DNA from: a virus
Lineage: Duplodnaviria; Heunggongvirae; Uroviricota; Caudoviricetes
Length of the DNA: 5,816 bases
IMG/VR virus record: IMGVR_UViG_3300013903_000020
Strand: one strand, 5' to 3'
Shown here: positions 1-5,816 of the stretch, piece after piece
Layout: the number at the start of each line of letters is the position of its first letter
How positions within the stretch are numbered: the stretch's first letter is position 1
Program-made: the position numbers and the translations under genes
Notes under the pieces: generated by a model
What the model was told of the DNA's origin: nothing
The model's database searches: none
What the model saw: the letters and a program-made list of their open reading frames with translations, nothing else

Positions 1-180
1 CGAACCTTCCGTGAGAAATATTCCGAGTCTCCCATTTCAGCTACTGACTGGTACTATAGATTTAGCCGCGATGATGGTAAATGTTGTAATGACCTTGAAT
101 TTTTCAGTTGCACTTGCCTGAAATGCGATCGAGCAGGTGAGTGCGAGGCCCCCCAAGAGCATGGTTACTTTTTTTATTGA
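1..180 (+). CDS. 3'-terminal fragment of an unidentified gene entering from upstream of the window (Cys-rich C-terminus ...CCNDLEFFSCTCLKCDRAGECE...)
   Basis: Frame 1 is open from base 1 to a TGA at 178-180 (59 codons) with protein-like composition and several Cys pairs. There is no in-frame start inside the window, so it is absent from the ORF track. Identity unknown. Confidence 0.3.
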   Translation, partial: RTFREKYSESPISATDWYYRFSRDDGKCCNDLEFFSCTCLKCDRAGECEAPQEHGYFFY

Positions 181-260
181 GCGCATAATTTAGTACCTAT
201 AGTGAGCAAAATTAGAACAAACATAGCAACGGCTATGTTTTATAGCATAACCTATACAAA

Positions 261-544
261 ATGAAAATGATTATCATTAACAACTTTGAGGCCCAAAACA
301 GGGATTAGTTTGTTTCCTGCTGGATGAAAGGACTCTTGGGATAGCACATGCCGCACGAAGAGCAGCATTACATGATGTTTTGTCGAATGAGCTACGAATC
401 CTGATAGAAATACGAAACAAGCTAGCACATGGACAATGGATCTATCCCTTCAATAATGAAGGAAATACTGTGGACCCTGATAAATTTAAATTAATCGATA
501 AAGAAAACTTGCAGTCACTTCAATTCAAATATTCATTAGCATAG
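261..544 (+). pseudogene. Disrupted small ORF with a HEPN-like R-x4-H motif (possible abortive-infection or toxin remnant)
   Basis: ATG at 261 opens a 15-codon frame-3 ORF (MKMIIINNFEAQNRD) ending at TAG 306-308. Frame 2 is open from 290 to TAG 542-544 and encodes ...ELRILIEIRNKLAHGQWIY..., with RNKLAH at 413-430. A single-base change in the A-run near 295-298 would fuse both parts into one ORF of about 97 aa. No Shine-Dalgarno sequence upstream of 261. Confidence 0.3.
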
Positions 545-813
545 CATTTAGCTGATGCTGTACATGATTTGGTTGTAAGTCCTACGACATTCGAACGAGA
601 TTTCGAAAGCCATTTTAAAAATTCTTTTACGTCCGCTCCTCGCTCATAACAGGCATTCACTACATTTGTCTTCATTGGCTATGCAAGTCGTAATACAAGG
701 TGGGGCAAAACTGAGACACATAAGGTCTCTCACAAAGGTCTGCAAGGCCTCACATGTATTGAGATGTTAATAAAATGTAGACTTGTAATTTTGATATAAA
801 TGGTAGATAAAAC

Positions 814-826
814 CTTTCCCCAAAAT
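814..826 (+). promoter_or_regulatory. Isolated copy of the TTCCCCAAAA motif; candidate integrase arm-type site on the far (P-arm) side of the icd segment
   Basis: CTTTCCCCAAAAT at 814-826 matches the three tandem repeats at 1175-1211 and lies about 120 bp upstream of where icd homology starts. Confidence 0.3.
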
Positions 827-911
827 AAAAACGAACGTCAATGAAATCAAACGGTTGAATAAAGTTGATTTTGGCTAATAAAAAAACAATAAAATAATTT
901 TTATCATTAAA

Positions 912-924
912 TATCAATTACTTG
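912..924 (+). promoter_or_regulatory. IHF-consensus-like site (WATCAANNNNTTR) next to the putative attachment core
   Basis: TATCAATTACTTG at 912-924 fits the IHF consensus at every specified position, in an AT-rich context about 20 bp upstream of the icd-homologous segment. Confidence 0.3.
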
Positions 925-943
925 AACTTAATGTTTTTATATA

Positions 944-1108
944 CTGCTGCGCCATATGGGCTGGACTGAAGCCGCAGACCTGATTGTTAAAGGTATGGAA
1001 GGCGCAATCAACGCGAAGACCGTAACCTATGACTTCGAACGTCTGATGGAAGGCGCTAAACTGCTGAAATGTTCAGAGTTTGGTGATGCGATCATCAAGA
1101 ATATGTAA
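944..1108 (+). pseudogene. icd: icd 3'-terminal segment (last about 54 codons of isocitrate dehydrogenase), phage-associated attachment-site copy, not a full gene
   Basis: Translation [54 protein letters not shown] matches the Icd C-terminus as I recall it. The frame is closed by TAA at 929-931 and upstream sequence is AT-rich non-icd DNA, so only the 165-bp tail is present. Confidence 0.85.
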
Positions 1109-1131
1109 TCACTACATGTGTTAAATATTGA

Positions 1132-1160
1132 AACGGGCGTATAACACGCCCGTTGTTTTA
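1132..1160 (+). terminator. Rho-independent terminator downstream of the icd segment
   Basis: Stem AACGGGCG (1132-1139), loop TATAACA, stem CGCCCGTT (1147-1154), then GTTTTAT. Sits 24 bp after the icd stop codon. Confidence 0.7.
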
Positions 1161-1174
1161 TGATGATGTAAAAT

Positions 1175-1211
1175 CTTCCCCAAAACTTTCCCCAAAACCC
1201 TTCCCCAAAAC
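1175..1211 (+). repeat. Three tandem direct repeats (C)TTCCCCAAAAC; candidate integrase arm-type binding sites (P'-arm analogue)
   Basis: CTTCCCCAAAAC (1175-1186), TTTCCCCAAAAC (1187-1198) and CCTTCCCCAAAAC (1199-1211) are head-to-tail, ending 11 bp before the int stop codon at 1222-1224. A fourth copy lies at 814-826. Confidence 0.6.
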
Positions 1212-1221
1212 TGGCTATTTT

Positions 1222-2364
1222 CTATGCTGTTTTGATATCTACGATAATCCAGTCTTTACCACGATCATCATTGTATCGGTCGGTCATTTTTCTGGATTTA
1301 TGGCCTAACAACTTTTGCGTATCCAGACCCTGTTCCCGATATAACCGTTCTGACAGAGATCGCTGCTCATGAAATGTGGGCGCAGTTCCTTGCTCCCATT
1401 TTATGCCACATTTTTCCCTGGCCTTTTTAAAAGCCGTTGTCAGAGTATTCGCAGAAACCTGGTCTCCTCTGTTTGCTTGAGAGGTTGTGTGACGGTAATG
1501 GACCAGATATTTACTAACAACAGCATCCCTGCACTGAGATATAACTTCACGAAGGGTAATATTCAGAGCATCGCATTTCAGGTTAAGCGGAATAGCAAGT
1601 TTTGAACCGGTTTTTTCCTGAGTAATGTGCAACATGTCGTCCCAGATATCAGAGAATTTCAAATTGCAGATATCGCCTAAACGTTGTCCAGTGACAAGAG
1701 CAAGTAGCATCCCGCATTTTAAATAGGGCTGCCGTCTGCTTACGCTGTCAAATATTGCCTGCCATTCGGGCAGTGATAATCTTTGGCGGTTTACTCGATT
1801 TCGCGGTTGTTTTGTTGCCTGCGCTGGGTTAAATCCTGGCGGAACATGTCCTGCGTGTTGTGCTTCTTTGAAGACGTCGATTAACACCATTCTCACGACT
1901 TGCGCCATCCTGTTATGACCTTCAGCCTTTACAGCATCAATTATTTCGGCAATATCAAGTGCGGTAATATCCTTGAGGTGTTGCATTCCACAATGCTCAC
2001 GGAAAAGACGAATGGGTTTGCCTTTTTGCCGATAGGAGTTGGGTCTTAGTTCATTATGTTGCAGCCTGTCCTCCTGGATAGAAATATATTTATCAAGCCA
2101 TTCTGTCACCGTAATGTCTGAGCGCCTGCCTTTCATTCTTTCCAGACGCTCATTGACGCTTAATATTTGTCGGGTACGTTGTTCAGCAATAATGGTATTT
2201 GCTTCAGTAGCAACTTGTTTTGCTTCATTCTCATCAGTTCCTAAGCTATGAAAACGACCGGATAGTGGATGTTTGTATTGCCAATATACCTTTCCGGTTC
2301 GCTTATCTAATTTGCAATATAAATTGGGTATAGAGATTTTGTGAGATCGGGGTCTAGCAGCCAT
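1222..2364 (-). CDS. int: Tyrosine-family site-specific integrase (e14 IntE / phage-21 Int-like, icd-targeting)
   Basis: 380-aa ORF with tyrosine-recombinase hallmarks: TGQR, H-E-Q-R (HxxR), and GHKS...TDRY with the catalytic Tyr near the C-terminus. It lies beside the att-like icd segment and overlaps the upstream xis by 11 nt. Confidence 0.95.
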   Translation of the reverse strand: MAARPRSHKISIPNLYCKLDKRTGKVYWQYKHPLSGRFHSLGTDENEAKQVATEANTIIAEQRTRQILSVNERLERMKGRRSDITVTEWLDKYISIQEDRLQHNELRPNSYRQKGKPIRLFREHCGMQHLKDITALDIAEIIDAVKAEGHNRMAQVVRMVLIDVFKEAQHAGHVPPGFNPAQATKQPRNRVNRQRLSLPEWQAIFDSVSRRQPYLKCGMLLALVTGQRLGDICNLKFSDIWDDMLHITQEKTGSKLAIPLNLKCDALNITLREVISQCRDAVVSKYLVHYRHTTSQANRGDQVSANTLTTAFKKAREKCGIKWEQGTAPTFHEQRSLSERLYREQGLDTQKLLGHKSRKMTDRYNDDRGKDWIIVDIKTA

Positions 2365-2590
2365 CAGCGATTATCCGTTGGAGTTTTGGGTTTGCGTTTA
2401 TTGGGAGTTGCGGTTCTGCAAGCGTTCCTACAAAACGGGAATTTCGGTCAATCATCCAGTAGCGACCAACTTTTATAGCTGGTGGGGCCATCATTTTCCC
2501 TTGCGCGTATTTTTTCAGAACTCGCTCACTTGGTGCTAAGTCCCCAAATTCTTCTTTAGCCCAGTCCTGTAAAGTGATTAGTCGAGACAT
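2354..2590 (-). CDS. xis: Excisionase / recombination directionality factor (XisE-like)
   Basis: 78-aa ORF immediately upstream of int with an 11-nt overlap and a strong SD (GAGGAGG, 4 nt before the ATG). Small basic protein in the canonical xis position. Confidence 0.8.
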   Translation of the reverse strand: MSRLITLQDWAKEEFGDLAPSERVLKKYAQGKMMAPPAIKVGRYWMIDRNSRFVGTLAEPQLPINANPKLQRIIADGC

Positions 2591-2729
2591 TTGTCCTCCT
2601 CTTAGCTGCTGAGGGAGTTTGTGACCGATATATCTGACATGATATTAAGCTCATGGCAGGTACATCTCATGACTGGTCATAGAGATAAATTTAATGCTGA
2701 GAAATGCAGTATTGAATTTATCAATTTTT

Positions 2730-2969
2730 CTATTTCCTGCGTATGGCACGTAACTTCTTAATGTGTTCTGCCGTTTCGATCTCTTCTGCTATCCGATCTG
2801 CATCAGCTTTATTCACAGGTTCAAAGTCATGATTAAAGCGGAACATGCTGGCGATACATGTTCTGCCTTTTCGGATGTAGTGAACTTTGTTATGGGTAGA
2901 ACGCAGGATTTTGCAGGGAGTGCCGTGGTGGTCGACGTACCAGGTGTTAGGGTAAATCACTCTGAACAT
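2730..2969 (-). CDS. Hypothetical small protein (79 aa) of the early-left operon
   Basis: ATG-initiated ORF on the same strand as int/xis, overlapping the stop of the upstream gene by 23 nt. Protein-like composition but no motif I recognise; SD is weak. Confidence 0.45.
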   Translation of the reverse strand: MFRVIYPNTWYVDHHGTPCKILRSTHNKVHYIRKGRTCIASMFRFNHDFEPVNKADADRIAEEIETAEHIKKLRAIRRK

Positions 2970-3279
2970 TCTTGACCTTGTGTTGTGCGGATTGATATTC
3001 AGTGGTGATATTCACCTTTATAGCGAACACCTTTACCGGTTTATCGCCAAAGTGCGGATGTGTGATTGTCTTCACTTCATATCCGTCATACGGAACATCA
3101 ATTCTGCGACTGGAATCGTCGCGCTTCGGATATCCCTTTGTGATAATCAGGCGGTCATATTCCCGGAACATAATTCGCTTATTCCAGTAGTCATTACACA
3201 AGCGATACTCTTCCGTTTTCTCTCCGCGAATCATGGCATCGAAGTATTCACTTTTAACAGCAAGTTGCAGGTTAGCCAT
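2947..3279 (-). CDS. ASCH-domain-like protein (GxKxxExR motif)
   Basis: The ORF is open to 3345, but the Met at 3277-3279 gives MANLQ... and its ATG overlaps the TGA of the upstream TraR-like gene (TGATG). IRGEKTEEYR carries the ASCH signature G-x-K-x-x-E-x-R. Confidence 0.6.
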   Translation of the reverse strand: MANLQLAVKSEYFDAMIRGEKTEEYRLCNDYWNKRIMFREYDRLIITKGYPKRDDSSRRIDVPYDGYEVKTITHPHFGDKPVKVFAIKVNITTEYQSAQHKVKNVQSDLP

Positions 3280-3500
3280 CACTTCATCCCCCTTTGTTTG
3301 CGGATAAGCTCCAGATCTTGCTGGCAACTGGCGCAAGTCCGACAACCCTGAACGGCCAGTCGTCTTCGTTCATCTATCGGATCGCCACACTCACAACAAT
3401 GAGTGGCAGATACAGCCAGGTAGTTCAGGCGGCGCATTTTTATTGCTGTGTTGCGCTGTAATTCTTCTATTTCTGATGCTGAATCAATGATGTCTGCCAT
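3279..3500 (-). CDS. TraR/DksA-family C4 zinc-finger protein
   Basis: 73-aa ORF with two CxxC pairs (C-C-E-C ... C-R-T-C) spaced as in the DksA/TraR zinc finger. Typical small early gene of lambdoid prophages. Confidence 0.85.
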   Translation of the reverse strand: MADIIDSASEIEELQRNTAIKMRRLNYLAVSATHCCECGDPIDERRRLAVQGCRTCASCQQDLELIRKQRGMK

Positions 3501-3552
3501 CTTTCATTAATCCCTGAACTGTTGGTTAATACGCTTGAGGGTGAATGCGAAC

Positions 3553-3576
3553 AATAAAAAAGGAGCCTGTAGCTCC
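3553..3576 (-). terminator. Putative rho-independent terminator for leftward transcription
   Basis: On the minus strand: GGAGC-tacag-GCTCC hairpin (plus 3562-3576) followed by TTTTTTAT (plus 3554-3561), 22 nt downstream of the stop at 3599. Stem is only 5 bp. Confidence 0.4.
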
Positions 3577-3598
3577 CTGATGATTTTGCTTTTCATGT

Positions 3599-3880
3599 TC
3601 ACCGTTCCTTAAAGACGCCGTTTAACATGCCGATCGCTAGGCTTAAATGAGTCGGTGTGAATCCCATCAGCGTTACTGTTTCGCGGTGCTTCTTCAGTAC
3701 GCTACGGCAAATGTCATCGACGTTTTTATCCGGAAACTGCTGTCTGGCTTTTTTGATTTCAGAATTAGCCTGACGGGCAATGCTGCGAAGGGCGTTTTCT
3801 TGCTGAGGTGTCACTGAACAAGCCCCATGTCGGCAAGCATAAGCACACAGAATATGAAGCCCGCTGCCAGAAAAATGCAT
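3599..3880 (-). CDS. Small hypothetical early-left protein (93 aa from ATG 3880; 71 aa if started at GTG 3814)
   Basis: ORF in the track. The first 22 residues (MHFSGSGLHILCAYACRHGACS) look non-native and the ATG lacks an SD. A GTG at 3812-3814 overlaps the TGA of a 27-codon upstream ORF (GTGA) and gives VTPQQENALRSIARQ... Confidence 0.5.
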   Translation of the reverse strand: MHFSGSGLHILCAYACRHGACSVTPQQENALRSIARQANSEIKKARQQFPDKNVDDICRSVLKKHRETVTLMGFTPTHLSLAIGMLNGVFKER

Positions 3881-3894
3881 TCAGTGGTTGTCAT
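3811..3894 (-). CDS. Candidate 27-aa hydrophobic peptide (MTTTECIFLAAGFIFCVLMLADMGLVQ), translationally coupled between two small genes
   Basis: ATG at 3892-3894 overlaps the TGA of the 63-aa gene (ATGA) and its own TGA overlaps the GTG at 3814 (GTGA). One predicted hydrophobic helix. Below the ORF-track length threshold; may be spurious. Confidence 0.2.
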   Translation of the reverse strand: MTTTECIFLAAGFIFCVLMLADMGLVQ

Positions 3895-4082
3895 ACCTGG
3901 TCTCTCTCATCTGCTTCTGCTTTCGCCACCATCATTTCCAGCTTTTGTGAAAGGGATGTGGCTAACGTATGAAATTCTTCGTCTGTTTCTACTGGTATTG
4001 GCACAAACCTGACTCCAATTTGAGCAAGGCTATGTGCCATCTCAATACTCGTTCTTAACTCAACAGGAGATGCTTTGTGCAT
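3891..4082 (-). CDS. Small hypothetical protein (63 aa), first gene of the leftward small-gene cluster
   Basis: ATG at 4080-4082 preceded by a strong SD (GGGAGG, 4 nt spacing). Acidic C-terminus and no obvious helix-turn-helix. Confidence 0.6.
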   Translation of the reverse strand: MHKASPVELRTSIEMAHSLAQIGVRFVPIPVETDEEFHTLATSLSQKLEMMVAKAEADERDQV

Positions 4083-4196
4083 ACCGCCTCCCGTTTATTA
4101 TTTATCTTCTCAGCCAGCCGCTGTGCTTTCAGTGGATTTCTGATAACAGAAAGGCCGGGAAATACCCAGCCTCGCTTTGTAACGGAGTGGACGAAA

Positions 4197-4619
4197 GTGA
4201 TCGCGCCTAATCAGGATGTCGTTGCCGCACTCATTGTGAATGAGTATCGAGCACAGGGCGGCGTCACCATCGATTTTCCTGATGATGTCAGTCGGGCACG
4301 CCAGAAGCTGTTCCGCTTCCTCGATAACAAATTCGATTCTGAAAAATACCGAAATAACGTGCGTGAACTGACCCCGGCAATTCTGGCGGTACTACCGCTG
4401 GAATATCGCGGCCACCTGGTTGAGCAGGATAGCTTCATGGCTAGGTTGGCTGAAATGGAAAAGGAACTCAGTGAGGCAAAACAGGCTGTCATTCTCAACG
4501 CACCACGCCACCAGAAATTGAAGGAAATTAGTGAAGGTATTGTGTCGATGTTTCGTGTGGACCCGGATCTGGCTGGTCCATTGATGGCGATGGTTACTAC
4601 CATGCTGGGGGCGATATGA
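4197..4619 (+). CDS. Early regulatory protein in the cII slot (possibly CII/YdaT-like), immediately upstream of the replication initiator
   Basis: The ORF is open from GTG 4077, but that start overlaps the divergent 63-aa gene and the first 40 residues look non-native. GTG 4197 has GGAG 9 nt upstream and gives 140 aa with a coiled-coil-like segment (MARLAEMEKELSEAKQ). Family not verifiable by eye. Confidence 0.5.
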   Translation: MIAPNQDVVAALIVNEYRAQGGVTIDFPDDVSRARQKLFRFLDNKFDSEKYRNNVRELTPAILAVLPLEYRGHLVEQDSFMARLAEMEKELSEAKQAVILNAPRHQKLKEISEGIVSMFRVDPDLAGPLMAMVTTMLGAI

Positions 4620-4705
4620 CAGGTTCAGAAATGGCGAAAGCCGGTCTGCTGGAACAGAACCGACTTTCAGGTGCAAATCGTAACACACTCATTGCGGGAG
4701 GAATT

Positions 4706-5635
4706 ATGGCAAACACTGCTGAGATATTCAATTTTCCAGTGCCGGATGCGGCACAAAAGGAGCCGCGCGTGGCAGATCTCGATGATGGTTATACGCGCAT
4801 TGCAAATGAGTTGCTGGAAGCTGTGATGCTGGCCGGATTAACACAGCACCAGCTTCTGGTCTTTCTGGCTGTCATGCGCAAAACATATGGCTTTAATAAA
4901 AAACTGGATTGGGTTAGCAACGAGCAACTTTCCGAATTAACCGGGATATTGCCGCACAAGTGTTCTGCTGCAAAAAGTGTTCTGGTAAAGCGTGGGATTT
5001 TTATTCAGAGCGGGCGGAATACCGGCATTAATAATGTGGTCAGTGAATGGTCAACATTACCCGAATCAGGTAAGAAAAATAAAGTTTACCTGAAAGAGGT
5101 AAATTTACCTGAATCAGGTAAAAAAAGTTTACCCAAATCAGGTAAAGGCGTTTACCCGAATCAGGTAAACACAAAAGACAAACTAACAAAAGACAATATA
5201 AAACCTTTTTCGTCCGAGAATTCTGGCGAATCCTCTGACCAACCAGAAAACGATCTTCCTGTGGTGAAACCGGATGCTGCAATTCAGAGCGGCAGCAAGT
5301 GGGGGACAGCAGAAGACCTGACCGCCGCAGAGTGGATGTTTGACATGGTGAAGACCATCGCGCCATCAGCCAGAAAACCGAATTTTGCAGGGTGGGCTAA
5401 CGATATCCGCCTGATGCGTGAACGTGACGGACGTAACCACCGCGACATGTGCGTGCTGTTCCGCTGGGCATGCCAGGACAACTTCTGGTCCGGTAACGTG
5501 CTAAGTCCGGCCAAACTCCGCGACAAGTGGACCCAACTCGAAATCAACCGTAACAAGCAACAGGCAGGCATGATAGCCAGAAAACCAAAACTCGACCTGA
5601 CAAACACTGACTGGATTTGCGGGGTGGATTTATGA
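4706..5635 (+). CDS. O: Lambda O-like replication initiator
   Basis: From ATG 4706 (SD GGGAGG at 4696-4701) the N-terminus MANTAEIFNF...VADLDDGYTRIANELLEA...MRKTYGFNK...SEQLSELTG matches the lambda O N-terminal DNA-binding domain as I recall it. An iteron array sits in the central linker. The ORF-track start at 4616 is probably a spurious extension. Confidence 0.9.
   Translation: MANTAEIFNFPVPDAAQKEPRVADLDDGYTRIANELLEAVMLAGLTQHQLLVFLAVMRKTYGFNKKLDWVSNEQLSELTGILPHKCSAAKSVLVKRGIFIQSGRNTGINNVVSEWSTLPESGKKNKVYLKEVNLPESGKKSLPKSGKGVYPNQVNTKDKLTKDNIKPFSSENSGESSDQPENDLPVVKPDAAIQSGSKWGTAEDLTAAEWMFDMVKTIAPSARKPNFAGWANDIRLMRERDGRNHRDMCVLFRWACQDNFWSGNVLSPAKLRDKWTQLEINRNKQQAGMIARKPKLDLTNTDWICGVDL
5057..5210 (+). 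repeat. Origin of replication: five 19-bp iterons (TTTACCyGAATCAGGTAAA, each an internal TTTACC/GGTAAA inverted repeat) followed by an A+T-rich segment
   Basis: Iterons at about 5057-5073, 5085-5103, 5104-5122, 5128-5146 and 5151-5169, then an AT-rich tract at 5170-5210. They lie inside the O-like gene linker, as in ori-lambda. Confidence 0.75.
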
Positions 5636-5816
5636 AAAACATCGCCGCACAGATGGTTAACTTTGACCGTGAGCAGATGCGTCGGATCGCCAACAACATG
5701 CCGGAACAGTACGACGAAAAGCCGCAGGTACAGCAGGTAGCGCAGATCATCAACGGTGTGTTCAGCCAGTTACTGGCAACTTTCCCGGCCGGGCTGGCTA
5801 ACTGCGACCCGAGTGA
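5632..5816 (+). CDS. P: Lambda P-like replication protein (helicase loader), 5' partial, continues beyond the window
   Basis: ATG at 5632 overlaps the O stop (ATGA) with GGGGTGGA upstream. MKNIAAQMVNFDREQMRRIANNMPEQYDEKPQVQQVAQIINGVFSQLLATFPAGLAN closely matches the lambda P N-terminus from memory. Confidence 0.9.
   Translation, partial: MKNIAAQMVNFDREQMRRIANNMPEQYDEKPQVQQVAQIINGVFSQLLATFPAGLANCDPS

What the first reader, a model, noticed from the sequence alone, without database searches (positions are those of the whole stretch)
4083..4196. Divergent control region with no recognisable CI/Cro pair; unusually compact distance from int to O
Only about 2.3 kb separates xis from the O-like gene, and none of the ORFs in between shows an obvious helix-turn-helix repressor. 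The leftward 63-aa gene (strong SD) and the rightward cII-slot gene diverge across 114 bp with no ORF. Either the immunity repressor is encoded elsewhere, one of the small proteins is a non-canonical repressor, or the element is a deletion derivative or satellite-like variant.
Basis: inference. Interest (0 to 1): 0.6.

Follow-up and report, generated by a model that had tools for sequence, protein, structure and literature searches.

The report
Deletion scar in defective lambdoid prophage
The supposed repressor-less control region is the join left by a 3.9-kb deletion that removed the repressor, Cro and recombination genes from a lambda-like prophage of E. coli, which is ordinary prophage decay, although the left end of the join is a TA dinucleotide reused by many independent deletions.

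Summary
Window 4083-4196 is not a divergent control region. On the minus strand, 4055-4207 encodes residues 11-60 of a lambda Orf60a (DUF1317) homologue that has lost its first ten codons and its start codon. At a TA (4208-4209) it is joined to codon 44 of a ydaT gene, the CII-slot regulator. An intact sibling prophage at the same icd site (L008) has 3,890 bp between these two points. That stretch holds exo, bet, gam, kil, a CI-like HTH+S24 repressor, a YdaS/Cro-like gene and the first 43 codons of ydaT. The identical join occurs in six complete E. coli genomes, one viral contig and two metagenome contigs, so it is real. The 63-aa gene is lambda Orf63, an exo-xis region protein with a solved structure, not a repressor. 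One by-product is unexpected. The same TA in orf60a is the fixed end of at least 13 different deletions, 11 rightward and 2 leftward, one of them in DLP12 of K-12. Nearly all short-overlap deletion joins in these prophages are TA-TA. I could not identify the mechanism behind this.

The parts
956..1108 (+). 3' fragment of icd (isocitrate dehydrogenase) carried at the prophage attachment site
   Evidence: The translation matches the icd C-terminus. RefSeq genomes have icd or an icd pseudogene here, next to the same int.
1222..2364 (-). lambda-type tyrosine integrase
   Evidence: Pfam Arm-DNA-bind_1 and Phage_integrase.
2354..2590 (-). excisionase
   Evidence: Pfam Exc, E 6.7e-6; PGAP 'excisionase'.
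2730..3500 (-). three small leftward genes: DUF4222 (2730-2969), ASCH-like (2947-3279), TraR/DksA zinc finger (3279-3500)
   Evidence: Pfam and PHROG hits; PGAP annotation of identical DNA. The Pfam ASCH hit is below threshold, so that name comes from PGAP.
3599..3814 (-). 71-aa hypothetical protein of the exo-xis region (phrog_303)
   Evidence: PHROG E 4.7e-36; PGAP CDS.
3891..4082 (-). orf63 homologue (DUF1382), full length
   Evidence: Pfam DUF1382 positions 1-60 of 60, E 7.7e-31. PDB 8DSB, E 7.4e-33. Same family name (DUF1382) as lambda orf63 at 31005-31196.
4055..4207 (-). orf60a (DUF1317) remnant: residues 11-60, with no start codon and a TGA immediately upstream
   Evidence: Translation; Pfam DUF1317 positions 11-60 of 60; alignment with lambda, L008 and phage Turner Orf60a.
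4151..4173 (-). terminator-like hairpin inside the orf60a remnant
   Evidence: Consensus scan. The equivalent lambda position carries a misc_recomb mark at 31266/7. I identify it with lambda tL3 from memory only.
4208..4209 (.). deletion join: a single TA shared by both parent sequences
   Evidence: Similarity to orf63-orf60a of phages ends at 4209, and similarity to ydaT begins at 4208.
4210..4619 (+). ydaT remnant (codons 44-179): part of the POU-type HTH domain is lost, the C-terminal helix region is retained
   Evidence: Alignment A1; Pfam YdaT_toxin; PHROG 'CII-like transcriptional activator', profile positions 29-168 of 168; PGAP pseudogene. Domain layout from PMC9986795.
4616..5635 (+). 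O-like replication initiator containing origin iterons (about 5057-5173)
   Evidence: Pfam Phage_rep_O, E 1.1e-33; four to five copies of TTACCYGAATCAGGTAA.
5632..5816 (+). start of the P-like replication gene (runs off the window)
   Evidence: PGAP 'replication protein P' at the matching position in identical DNA.

Best explanation
Window 4083-4196 lies inside the scar of one illegitimate-recombination deletion in a lambdoid prophage integrated at icd. The deletion joined a TA in codon 10 of the leftward gene orf60a to a TA spanning codons 43/44 of the rightward gene ydaT. It removed about 3.9 kb: the start of orf60a, exo, bet, gam, kil, the CI-like repressor, the operator/promoter region, the Cro-like gene and the first 43 codons of ydaT. 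These steps are shown. The following steps are inferred. What remains has no immunity switch, probably none of its early promoters, and a broken CII-slot regulator. The O and P replication genes therefore have no native promoter, and the element cannot run a lytic programme. It persists as a cryptic prophage. In the complete genomes that share the join it has also lost all head and tail genes and carries cargo genes (sitABCD, iss, a porin gene annotated ompC). The apparent GTG start with an upstream GGAG at 4197 is a chance product of the fusion.
For: The breakpoint is mapped to the base. Phage and prophage orf63-orf60a DNA matches the window up to 4209, and ydaT-O DNA matches from 4208. An intact sibling prophage at the same icd site (L008) matches window 662-4209 at L008 7758-11303 and window 4208-5801 at L008 15192-16785, so 3,890 bp are missing. 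The missing stretch is annotated exo, bet, gam, a cell-division inhibitor, an S24 peptidase, a transcriptional regulator and full-length ydaT. I confirmed the S24 peptidase as HTH_3 plus Peptidase_S24 and the regulator as YdaS/P22_Cro-like. The protein alignments show Orf60a residues 11-60 and YdaT residues 44-179. The identical join is present in six complete genomes at 100% identity, one IMG/VR contig and two metagenome contigs. PGAP calls ydaT a pseudogene there. There is no promoter-like site in the gap. The same prophage in strain 19AR1724 lacks morphogenesis genes. Other prophages at icd carry different deletions of the same region.
Against: There are no expression data. A fortuitous promoter, or read-through from outside, could still express the truncated YdaT from GTG 4197 (GGAG lies 9 nt upstream) together with O and P. 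The six genomes may be one clone, so conservation of the join says little about selection. I could not see the rest of the element in the window's own source genome, which is not in the collections searched.
Confidence: 0.93

Rival explanations
1. The element is a working temperate phage whose repressor is one of the small leftward proteins (Orf63, TraR/DksA-like, or the 71-aa protein) or is encoded elsewhere in the element.
For: No canonical repressor is present in the window. TraR/DksA-type proteins do act on transcription (general knowledge of that family).
Against: Homologues of most of these small genes sit at the same positions in intact phages that also carry CI and Cro: lambda for orf63 and orf60a, phage Turner for most of the interval. 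Orf63 is a characterised exo-xis protein with pro-lytic effects and an alpha/beta dimer fold. Both genes at the join are truncated, which no functional design would need. The rest of the prophage in genomes with the same join has no annotated repressor, and four un-named genes there lack HTH hits.
Confidence: 0.03
2. The fusion has acquired a function. The N-terminally truncated YdaT is translated from GTG 4197 and acts through its retained tetramerisation helix, for example as a dominant-negative partner of full-length YdaT from other prophages in the cell.
For: The open frame runs 4077-4619, and a GGAG lies 9 nt upstream of GTG 4197. YdaT tetramerises through its C-terminal helix, which is retained, and DNA binding needs both domains. 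Many E. coli genomes carry several ydaT copies (median 2 places per genome).
Against: No promoter-like site lies upstream. PGAP treats the gene as a pseudogene. Nothing shows selection on the fusion.
Confidence: 0.08
3. The join is an assembly or collapse artefact between similar prophages.
For: Lambdoid prophages share long near-identical segments, which can mislead short-read assemblers.
Against: The same join is found at 100% identity in six complete-level genomes from different sources and in independent metagenome contigs. The join lies inside unique sequence with only 2 nt of overlap.
Confidence: 0.01
4. The element is a phage satellite (PICI-like) that depends on a helper phage and never had its own immunity region.
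For: It is compact, it keeps int, xis and replication genes, and the window shows an attP-like arrangement.
Against: Gene order and sequence are 96-100% identical to ordinary lambdoid prophages on both sides of a clean deletion join. No satellite hallmark genes were seen.
Confidence: 0.02

Closest known systems
Exo-xis region of lambda and Stx phages (orf61, orf63, orf60a)
   Same: The 63-aa gene and the 114-bp 'gap' are orf63 and orf60a, in the same order and with the same 28-nt overlap as in lambda. Orf63 has a solved structure (8DSB; PMC10869804).
   Different: Here orf60a lacks its first ten codons and the upstream exo gene, so it no longer has its native start codon or its pL-driven context.
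YdaS/YdaT immunity regions of Rac and CP-933P (Cro and CII functional equivalents)
   Same: The rightward gene is a YdaT-family protein in the CII slot, directly upstream of O (PMC9986795).
   Different: Intact relatives have repressor, ydaS-like cro, then a 179-aa ydaT. Here the repressor and the cro-like gene are gone and YdaT lacks residues 1-43 of its DNA-binding domain.
Cryptic prophage DLP12 of E. coli K-12
   Same: It is also a decayed lambdoid prophage. One of its deletion joins uses the very same TA in orf60a, and a second join (exo|P) is also TA-TA.
   Different: It has a different integrase and site (argU). Its orf60a deletion runs leftward into the xis region and keeps the first ten codons of orf60a plus part of exo.
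Prophages integrated at icd
   Same: The window has the same attachment context as the icd prophages in RefSeq genomes: a phage-borne icd 3' end followed by a leftward int. From memory, e14 and phage 21 integrate in the same way; I did not test this.
   Different: I made no direct comparison with e14 or phage 21. The early region here is of the lambda/DLP12 type.
IS-adjacent deletions made during IEE-dependent IS excision
   Same: Deletions from a few nt to more than 40 kb, with one end fixed at an IS site and microhomology joins, are described for this process (PMC9943667). That resembles the fixed-end pattern seen at the orf60a TA.
   Different: No IS was found at this TA in any locus. The nearest is an IS3-family insertion 7 nt away in L064. 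Nothing I read or recall links that process to TA specificity.

Membership tests
Lambda-type immunity region (CI / operators / Cro) | Leftward CI-like repressor (HTH plus S24 or equivalent) | tested here: not met
   No such hit among the window ORFs. It is present in the stretch deleted relative to L008.
Lambda-type immunity region (CI / operators / Cro) | Rightward Cro-like small HTH gene | tested here: not met
   Absent from the window. It is present in L003 and L008 between the repressor and ydaT.
Lambda-type immunity region (CI / operators / Cro) | Divergent promoters and operators in the intergenic gap | tested here: not met
   No promoter-like site in 4083-4196. The DNA is orf60a coding sequence, 97-99.7% identical to that of phages.
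YdaT family (CII-slot regulator) | Match to the family profile | tested here: met
   Pfam YdaT_toxin, E 2.9e-30; phrog_163 'CII-like', E 3.2e-54.
YdaT family (CII-slot regulator) | Complete N-terminal POU-type HTH domain | tested here: not met
   Residues 1-43 of 179 are replaced by unrelated sequence. PDB 8BT1 aligns from query residue 28. Domain layout from PMC9986795.
DUF1317 / lambda Orf60a | Profile match over the full length, with a start codon | tested here: not met
   Only profile positions 11-60 are present. A TGA precedes them, and there is no ATG/GTG, nor any TTG before the last codons of the frame.
DUF1382 / lambda Orf63 | Full-length profile match | tested here: met
   Pfam positions 1-60 of 60; 8DSB, E 7.4e-33.
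Cryptic (defective) lambdoid prophage | Truncated genes at a join that is absent from intact relatives | tested here: met
Cryptic (defective) lambdoid prophage | Loss of morphogenesis genes | tested here: inconclusive
   Met in strain 19AR1724, which carries the identical join. It cannot be seen for the window's own source, which is not in the collections.
IS / IEE-mediated adjacent deletion | IS element at or beside the fixed end | tested here: not met
   No IS end follows GCGCCTA in any of the loci found. IS insertions nearby have 2-5-bp or longer duplications, none of them TA, at other positions.
Phage satellite (PICI-like) | Helper-exploitation or packaging-redirection genes | not tested
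   I ran no specific search. The gene content seen is ordinary lambdoid.

The most novel reading that the evidence does not exclude
The TA in codon 10 of orf60a (GCGCC-TA-CCCGG) is a hot spot of a recombination process that, as far as I know, has not been described. The process is specific for TA dinucleotides and drives the decay of lambdoid prophages in E. coli. At least 13 different deletions, 11 rightward and 2 leftward, share this exact end, one of them in DLP12 of K-12. Nearly every short-overlap deletion join in these prophages is TA-TA. This points to an enzyme that makes or uses 2-nt TA overlaps, such as a transposase-like or serine-recombinase-like activity or a nuclease plus end joining, rather than to ordinary slippage.
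Probability: 0.3. Interest if true: 0.65.

Novelty: new member of a known kind. Interest (0 to 1): 0.3.

Why it matters
For the finding itself, not much. It shows that an apparent non-canonical immunity region is a deletion scar, that this prophage copy is defective, and that the ORF calls at 4077/4197 should not be annotated as a regulator. The by-product could matter more. If decay of lambdoid prophages, including the textbook DLP12, proceeds largely through TA-TA joins with a strong hot spot in orf60a, then a specific and still unnamed activity shapes how E. coli inactivates and domesticates prophages. That activity could be looked for genetically.

Tried and rejected
IS30 hot spot: the known lambda IS30 hot spot (LHS) is at 33244-33498 in kil/cIII, not in orf60a at 31322-31323, and its sequence is unrelated.

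An IS sitting at the TA: none was found in the viral, metagenome or species-representative genome scans. This includes a scan that allowed a C after the TA. The only nearby IS is an IS3-family element 7 nt away in L064, with a GAT duplication.

TA-duplicating mobile elements in these loci: none. The insertions seen are IS3-family elements, including IS2-like and IS3-like ones by their end sequences (my reading), plus a roughly 100-bp element and a 1.36-kb insert.

Hairpin or cruciform at the hot spot: folding is no better than for shuffled sequence.

Rpn nucleases: reported to have no sequence specificity.

Lambda-bio transduction hot spot (Ikeda laboratory): the library search returned no primary paper I could check.

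A literature search for TA-specific prophage deletions found nothing relevant.

Right-fixed joins that lack the TA (pattern BCCCGG...): zero hits, so the TA is kept on whichever side is retained.

The lambda record's misc_recomb marks carry no notes, so known laboratory deletion end points could not be compared.

Full report
WHAT IS IN THE WINDOW
The window is the left arm of a lambdoid prophage at icd. It contains an icd 3' fragment (956-1108) and then a run of leftward genes. These are int (1222-2364), xis (2354-2590), DUF4222, an ASCH-like gene, a TraR/DksA gene, a 71-aa gene and a 63-aa DUF1382 gene (3891-4082). Rightward genes follow: a YdaT-family gene ending at 4619, an O-like gene (4616-5635) and the start of P.

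CHECK OF THE OBSERVATION
No helix-turn-helix repressor is detectable between xis and O. The 63-aa gene has a good Shine-Dalgarno sequence. No ORF with a start codon fills 4083-4196. The distance from xis to O is about 2.0 kb, not 2.3 kb.

WHAT THE 114-bp GAP IS
A search of 5,426 complete E. coli genomes with window 3800-4700 gave the first clue. Only nine genomes cover the whole query. More than 3,000 others match only from query base 409, which is window 4208. Phage genomes match window 3880-4209 and stop there. The window therefore changes partner at 4208/4209.

Translating the minus strand across the gap gives ...S*LGAITFVHSVTKRGWVFPGLSVIRNPLKAQRLAEKINNKREAVCTKHLLLS*. This is Pfam DUF1317 positions 11-60 of 60 (E 3.8e-28). 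It aligns residue for residue with lambda Orf60a. The gap is the body of orf60a without its first ten codons and without a start codon, which is why an ORF list does not show it. The 63-aa gene is lambda orf63. It gives a full-length DUF1382 match and hits PDB 8DSB at E 7.4e-33. It overlaps orf60a by 28 nt, exactly as in lambda.

On the other side, homology to full-length 179-aa YdaT proteins begins at Asn44. The GTG at 4197 and the longer frame from 4077 are orf60a DNA read on the opposite strand. PGAP annotates this ydaT as 'incomplete, missing N-terminus' in RefSeq genomes with identical sequence.

WHAT WAS LOST
Strain FXCREC028 (locus L008) carries an intact sibling prophage at the same site, with the same left arm. 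Window 662-4209 aligns to L008 7758-11303, and window 4208-5801 aligns to L008 15192-16785. The two alignments overlap by the dinucleotide TA, and 3,890 bp are absent from the window.

In L008 that stretch is annotated as the start of orf60a, exo, bet, gam, a cell-division inhibitor, an S24 peptidase, a transcriptional regulator and the start of ydaT. I confirmed that the S24 protein has HTH_3 plus Peptidase_S24 domains, as CI-like repressors do. I also confirmed that the small regulator hits YdaS and P22_Cro. The canonical repressor/Cro pair therefore existed and was deleted together with the region between them, which is where the early promoters sit in lambda.

The YdaT family is a CII functional equivalent with an N-terminal POU-type HTH domain and a C-terminal tetramerisation helix (PMC9986795). 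Losing residues 1-43 removes part of the DNA-binding domain.

IS THE JOIN REAL, AND WHAT IS THE ELEMENT NOW
The identical join is present at 100% identity in six complete genomes, in one IMG/VR contig and in two metagenome contigs. It is not an assembly artefact.

In strain 19AR1724 the same prophage runs from int through O, P, the nin region, Q, lysis genes and iss to tail-fibre fragments and sitABCD. It has no head or tail genes. It is a cryptic prophage that carries cargo. Other prophages at icd show different losses of the same region: bet joined to a cro-like gene in L005, and IS5 and ISKpn26 replacing the immunity region in L006. No promoter-like site lies in the gap.

My reading is that the gap does nothing. 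O and P are left without their native promoter, and the element cannot be induced. This part is inference, because I have no expression data. A minor rival is that the truncated YdaT is translated from the fortuitous GTG 4197, which has a GGAG 9 nt upstream.

RIVALS
A non-canonical repressor among the small proteins is very unlikely. orf63 and orf60a coexist with CI and Cro in lambda. Most of the small genes of the interval are also present in phage Turner, which has a CI-like repressor. Orf63 is described as a pro-lytic exo-xis protein. A repressor elsewhere in the element is not seen in the genomes that share the join. I found no support for a satellite-like origin.

AN UNEXPECTED BY-PRODUCT: THE TA HOT SPOT
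Locus L001 is a prophage at argU. It has a different deletion that starts at exactly the same base...GATCGCGCCTA|, but joins it to the interior of the cro-like gene.

I scanned IMG/VR for the 20-mer ending in that TA followed by any base except the wild-type C. The scan gave nine loci, eight of them true joins to different right partners. The ninth, L015, shares only the 20-mer, and roughly 0.1-0.2 such hits are expected by chance, by my own estimate. Metagenome contigs and a further scan added two more partners, L145 and L156.

The right partners lie in ydaT, cro, O, ren, a nin-region gene whose product resembles NinB/YbcN, ybcO, a tail-fibre gene, and four places I did not identify. Wherever the flanking genes could be read, the events are collinear deletions.

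The converse also exists. Two different left partners, one in int and one in a small xis-adjacent ORF, are joined to |TACCCGGATATT... at the same TA. One of these is the DLP12 prophage of K-12 MG1655 and is present in 386 complete genomes.

Controls support a real hot spot. Two other TA sites 25-45 nt away in orf60a gave no joins, although their flanking 20-mers are about twice as conserved. A right-fixed pattern lacking the TA gave nothing.

In every case where both intact parents are known, both carry TA at the crossover and one TA remains. This holds for eight joins at the orf60a site and five elsewhere. It also holds for joins that do not involve orf60a: exo|P in DLP12, bet|cro-like in L005, a 353-bp deletion inside O in L001, and joins in L096 and L145.

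An all-against-all comparison of about 160 loci shows two classes of pure deletions. One class has 7-15-nt repeats. The other has 2-3-nt overlaps that are almost always TA, with about 13 distinct joins and one exception (TG).

TA makes up 5.2% of dinucleotides in these sequences. G at position -2 of the TA occurs in 14 of 17 sites against 28% expected (p about 5e-6).

WHAT I TESTED AS A CAUSE
- IS30: its lambda hot spot is elsewhere.
- An IS resident at the site: none was found.
- Secondary structure at the site: none.
- Rpn nucleases: reported as non-specific.

Deletions adjacent to an IS, as made during IEE-dependent IS excision, have the right geometry. However, no IS is at the site, and nothing I found links that process to TA.

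The pattern is a fixed end, an obligatory 2-nt TA overlap, and deletions only. It fits a staggered TA cut or a TA-ending 3' end that primes at another TA. I cannot name the enzyme.

COMPARISON WITH KNOWN SYSTEMS, AND VERDICT
The region is the exo-xis region of lambda fused to a YdaS/YdaT-type early-right region that has lost its switch. It is a new example of a very well known kind of object, a decayed lambdoid prophage, and current RefSeq annotation already flags the truncated ydaT. As a candidate for a new immunity system it scores low. The recurrent TA join deserves a systematic survey, and it is the only reason the interest score is not lower.

Noticed in passing
window 4208-4209; also L001 5409-5410, L009-L014, L016, L017, L137-L146, L156: The TA in codon 10 of orf60a (GCGCC-TA-CCCGG) is the exact end of at least 11 different rightward and 2 different leftward deletions in lambdoid prophages, including DLP12 of K-12. 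Two neighbouring TA sites used as controls have none.
   Followed up: yes
L141 about 1563 (exo|P), L005/L108 (bet|cro-like), L001 about 6251 (inside O), L096, L145, L064: Deletion joins that do not involve orf60a are also TA-TA with a 2-4-nt overlap. A second class of deletions uses 7-15-nt repeats, and only one short-overlap join is not TA. G is enriched at position -2 of the TA. The mechanism is unknown.
   Followed up: partly
window 1-1221: The window joins the right end of the prophage (the sitA-proximal arm, 99.5% identical to L007 29128-28035) through the icd 3' fragment to int. This is an attP-like order. It implies either tandem prophages, as in FXCREC028 (L008), or an excised or circular copy. 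The source genome is not among the complete genomes searched.
   Followed up: partly
window 816-825, 1176-1185, 1188-1197, 1201-1210: There are four exact copies of TTCCCCAAAA, against 0.04 expected by chance. Three are in tandem between the icd fragment and int. They are possibly arm-type integrase binding sites.
   Followed up: partly
window 5057-5173: There are four to five iterons, TTACCYGAATCAGGTAA, inside the O-like gene, followed by an A-rich stretch. This is the expected lambda-type origin. The 353-bp deletion in L001 ends in one of these iterons.
   Followed up: partly
window 3811-3894 (-): An unannotated 27-codon ORF, MTTTECIFLAAGFIFCVLMLADMGLVQ, is strongly hydrophobic. It overlaps the orf63 stop codon by 4 nt and has no PHROG hit.
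   Followed up: no
window 4151-4173 (-): A terminator-like hairpin (GAGGCTGGGTATTTCCCGGCCTT plus a T-rich tail) lies inside the orf60a remnant, about 35 nt from the join on the retained side. Lambda has a misc_recomb mark at the equivalent position (31266/7). It may be tL3, but I recall that only from memory.
   Followed up: no
L007 (NZ_CP195804.1 2804085-2827748): The prophage carrying the identical join has no head or tail genes. It does carry sitABCD, iss, a porin gene annotated ompC and a Bro-N/P22AR antirepressor-like gene.
   Followed up: partly
L064, 7 nt to the right of the orf60a TA: An IS3-family element (end TGAACCGCCCCGGG; my reading is IS629/IS1203-like) is inserted with a GAT duplication in the same short stretch of orf60a. 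The same locus has two further deletions, with TAA and TG overlaps.
   Followed up: no
L005 3940-5004; L006 6317-8626: Other prophages at icd decayed differently. One gained a DGQHR-domain gene in place of orf63 and lost bet through cro. Another has IS5 and ISKpn26 where the immunity region should be.
   Followed up: no
L007 about 41310 and the matching positions in L011, L013, L023, L044, L115, L140-L142: An insert of about 100 bp is present or absent beside the truncated ylcG gene. The reference sequences overlap by 3-5 nt at the join (AAAC/GTTT), so it may be a small mobile element.
   Followed up: no
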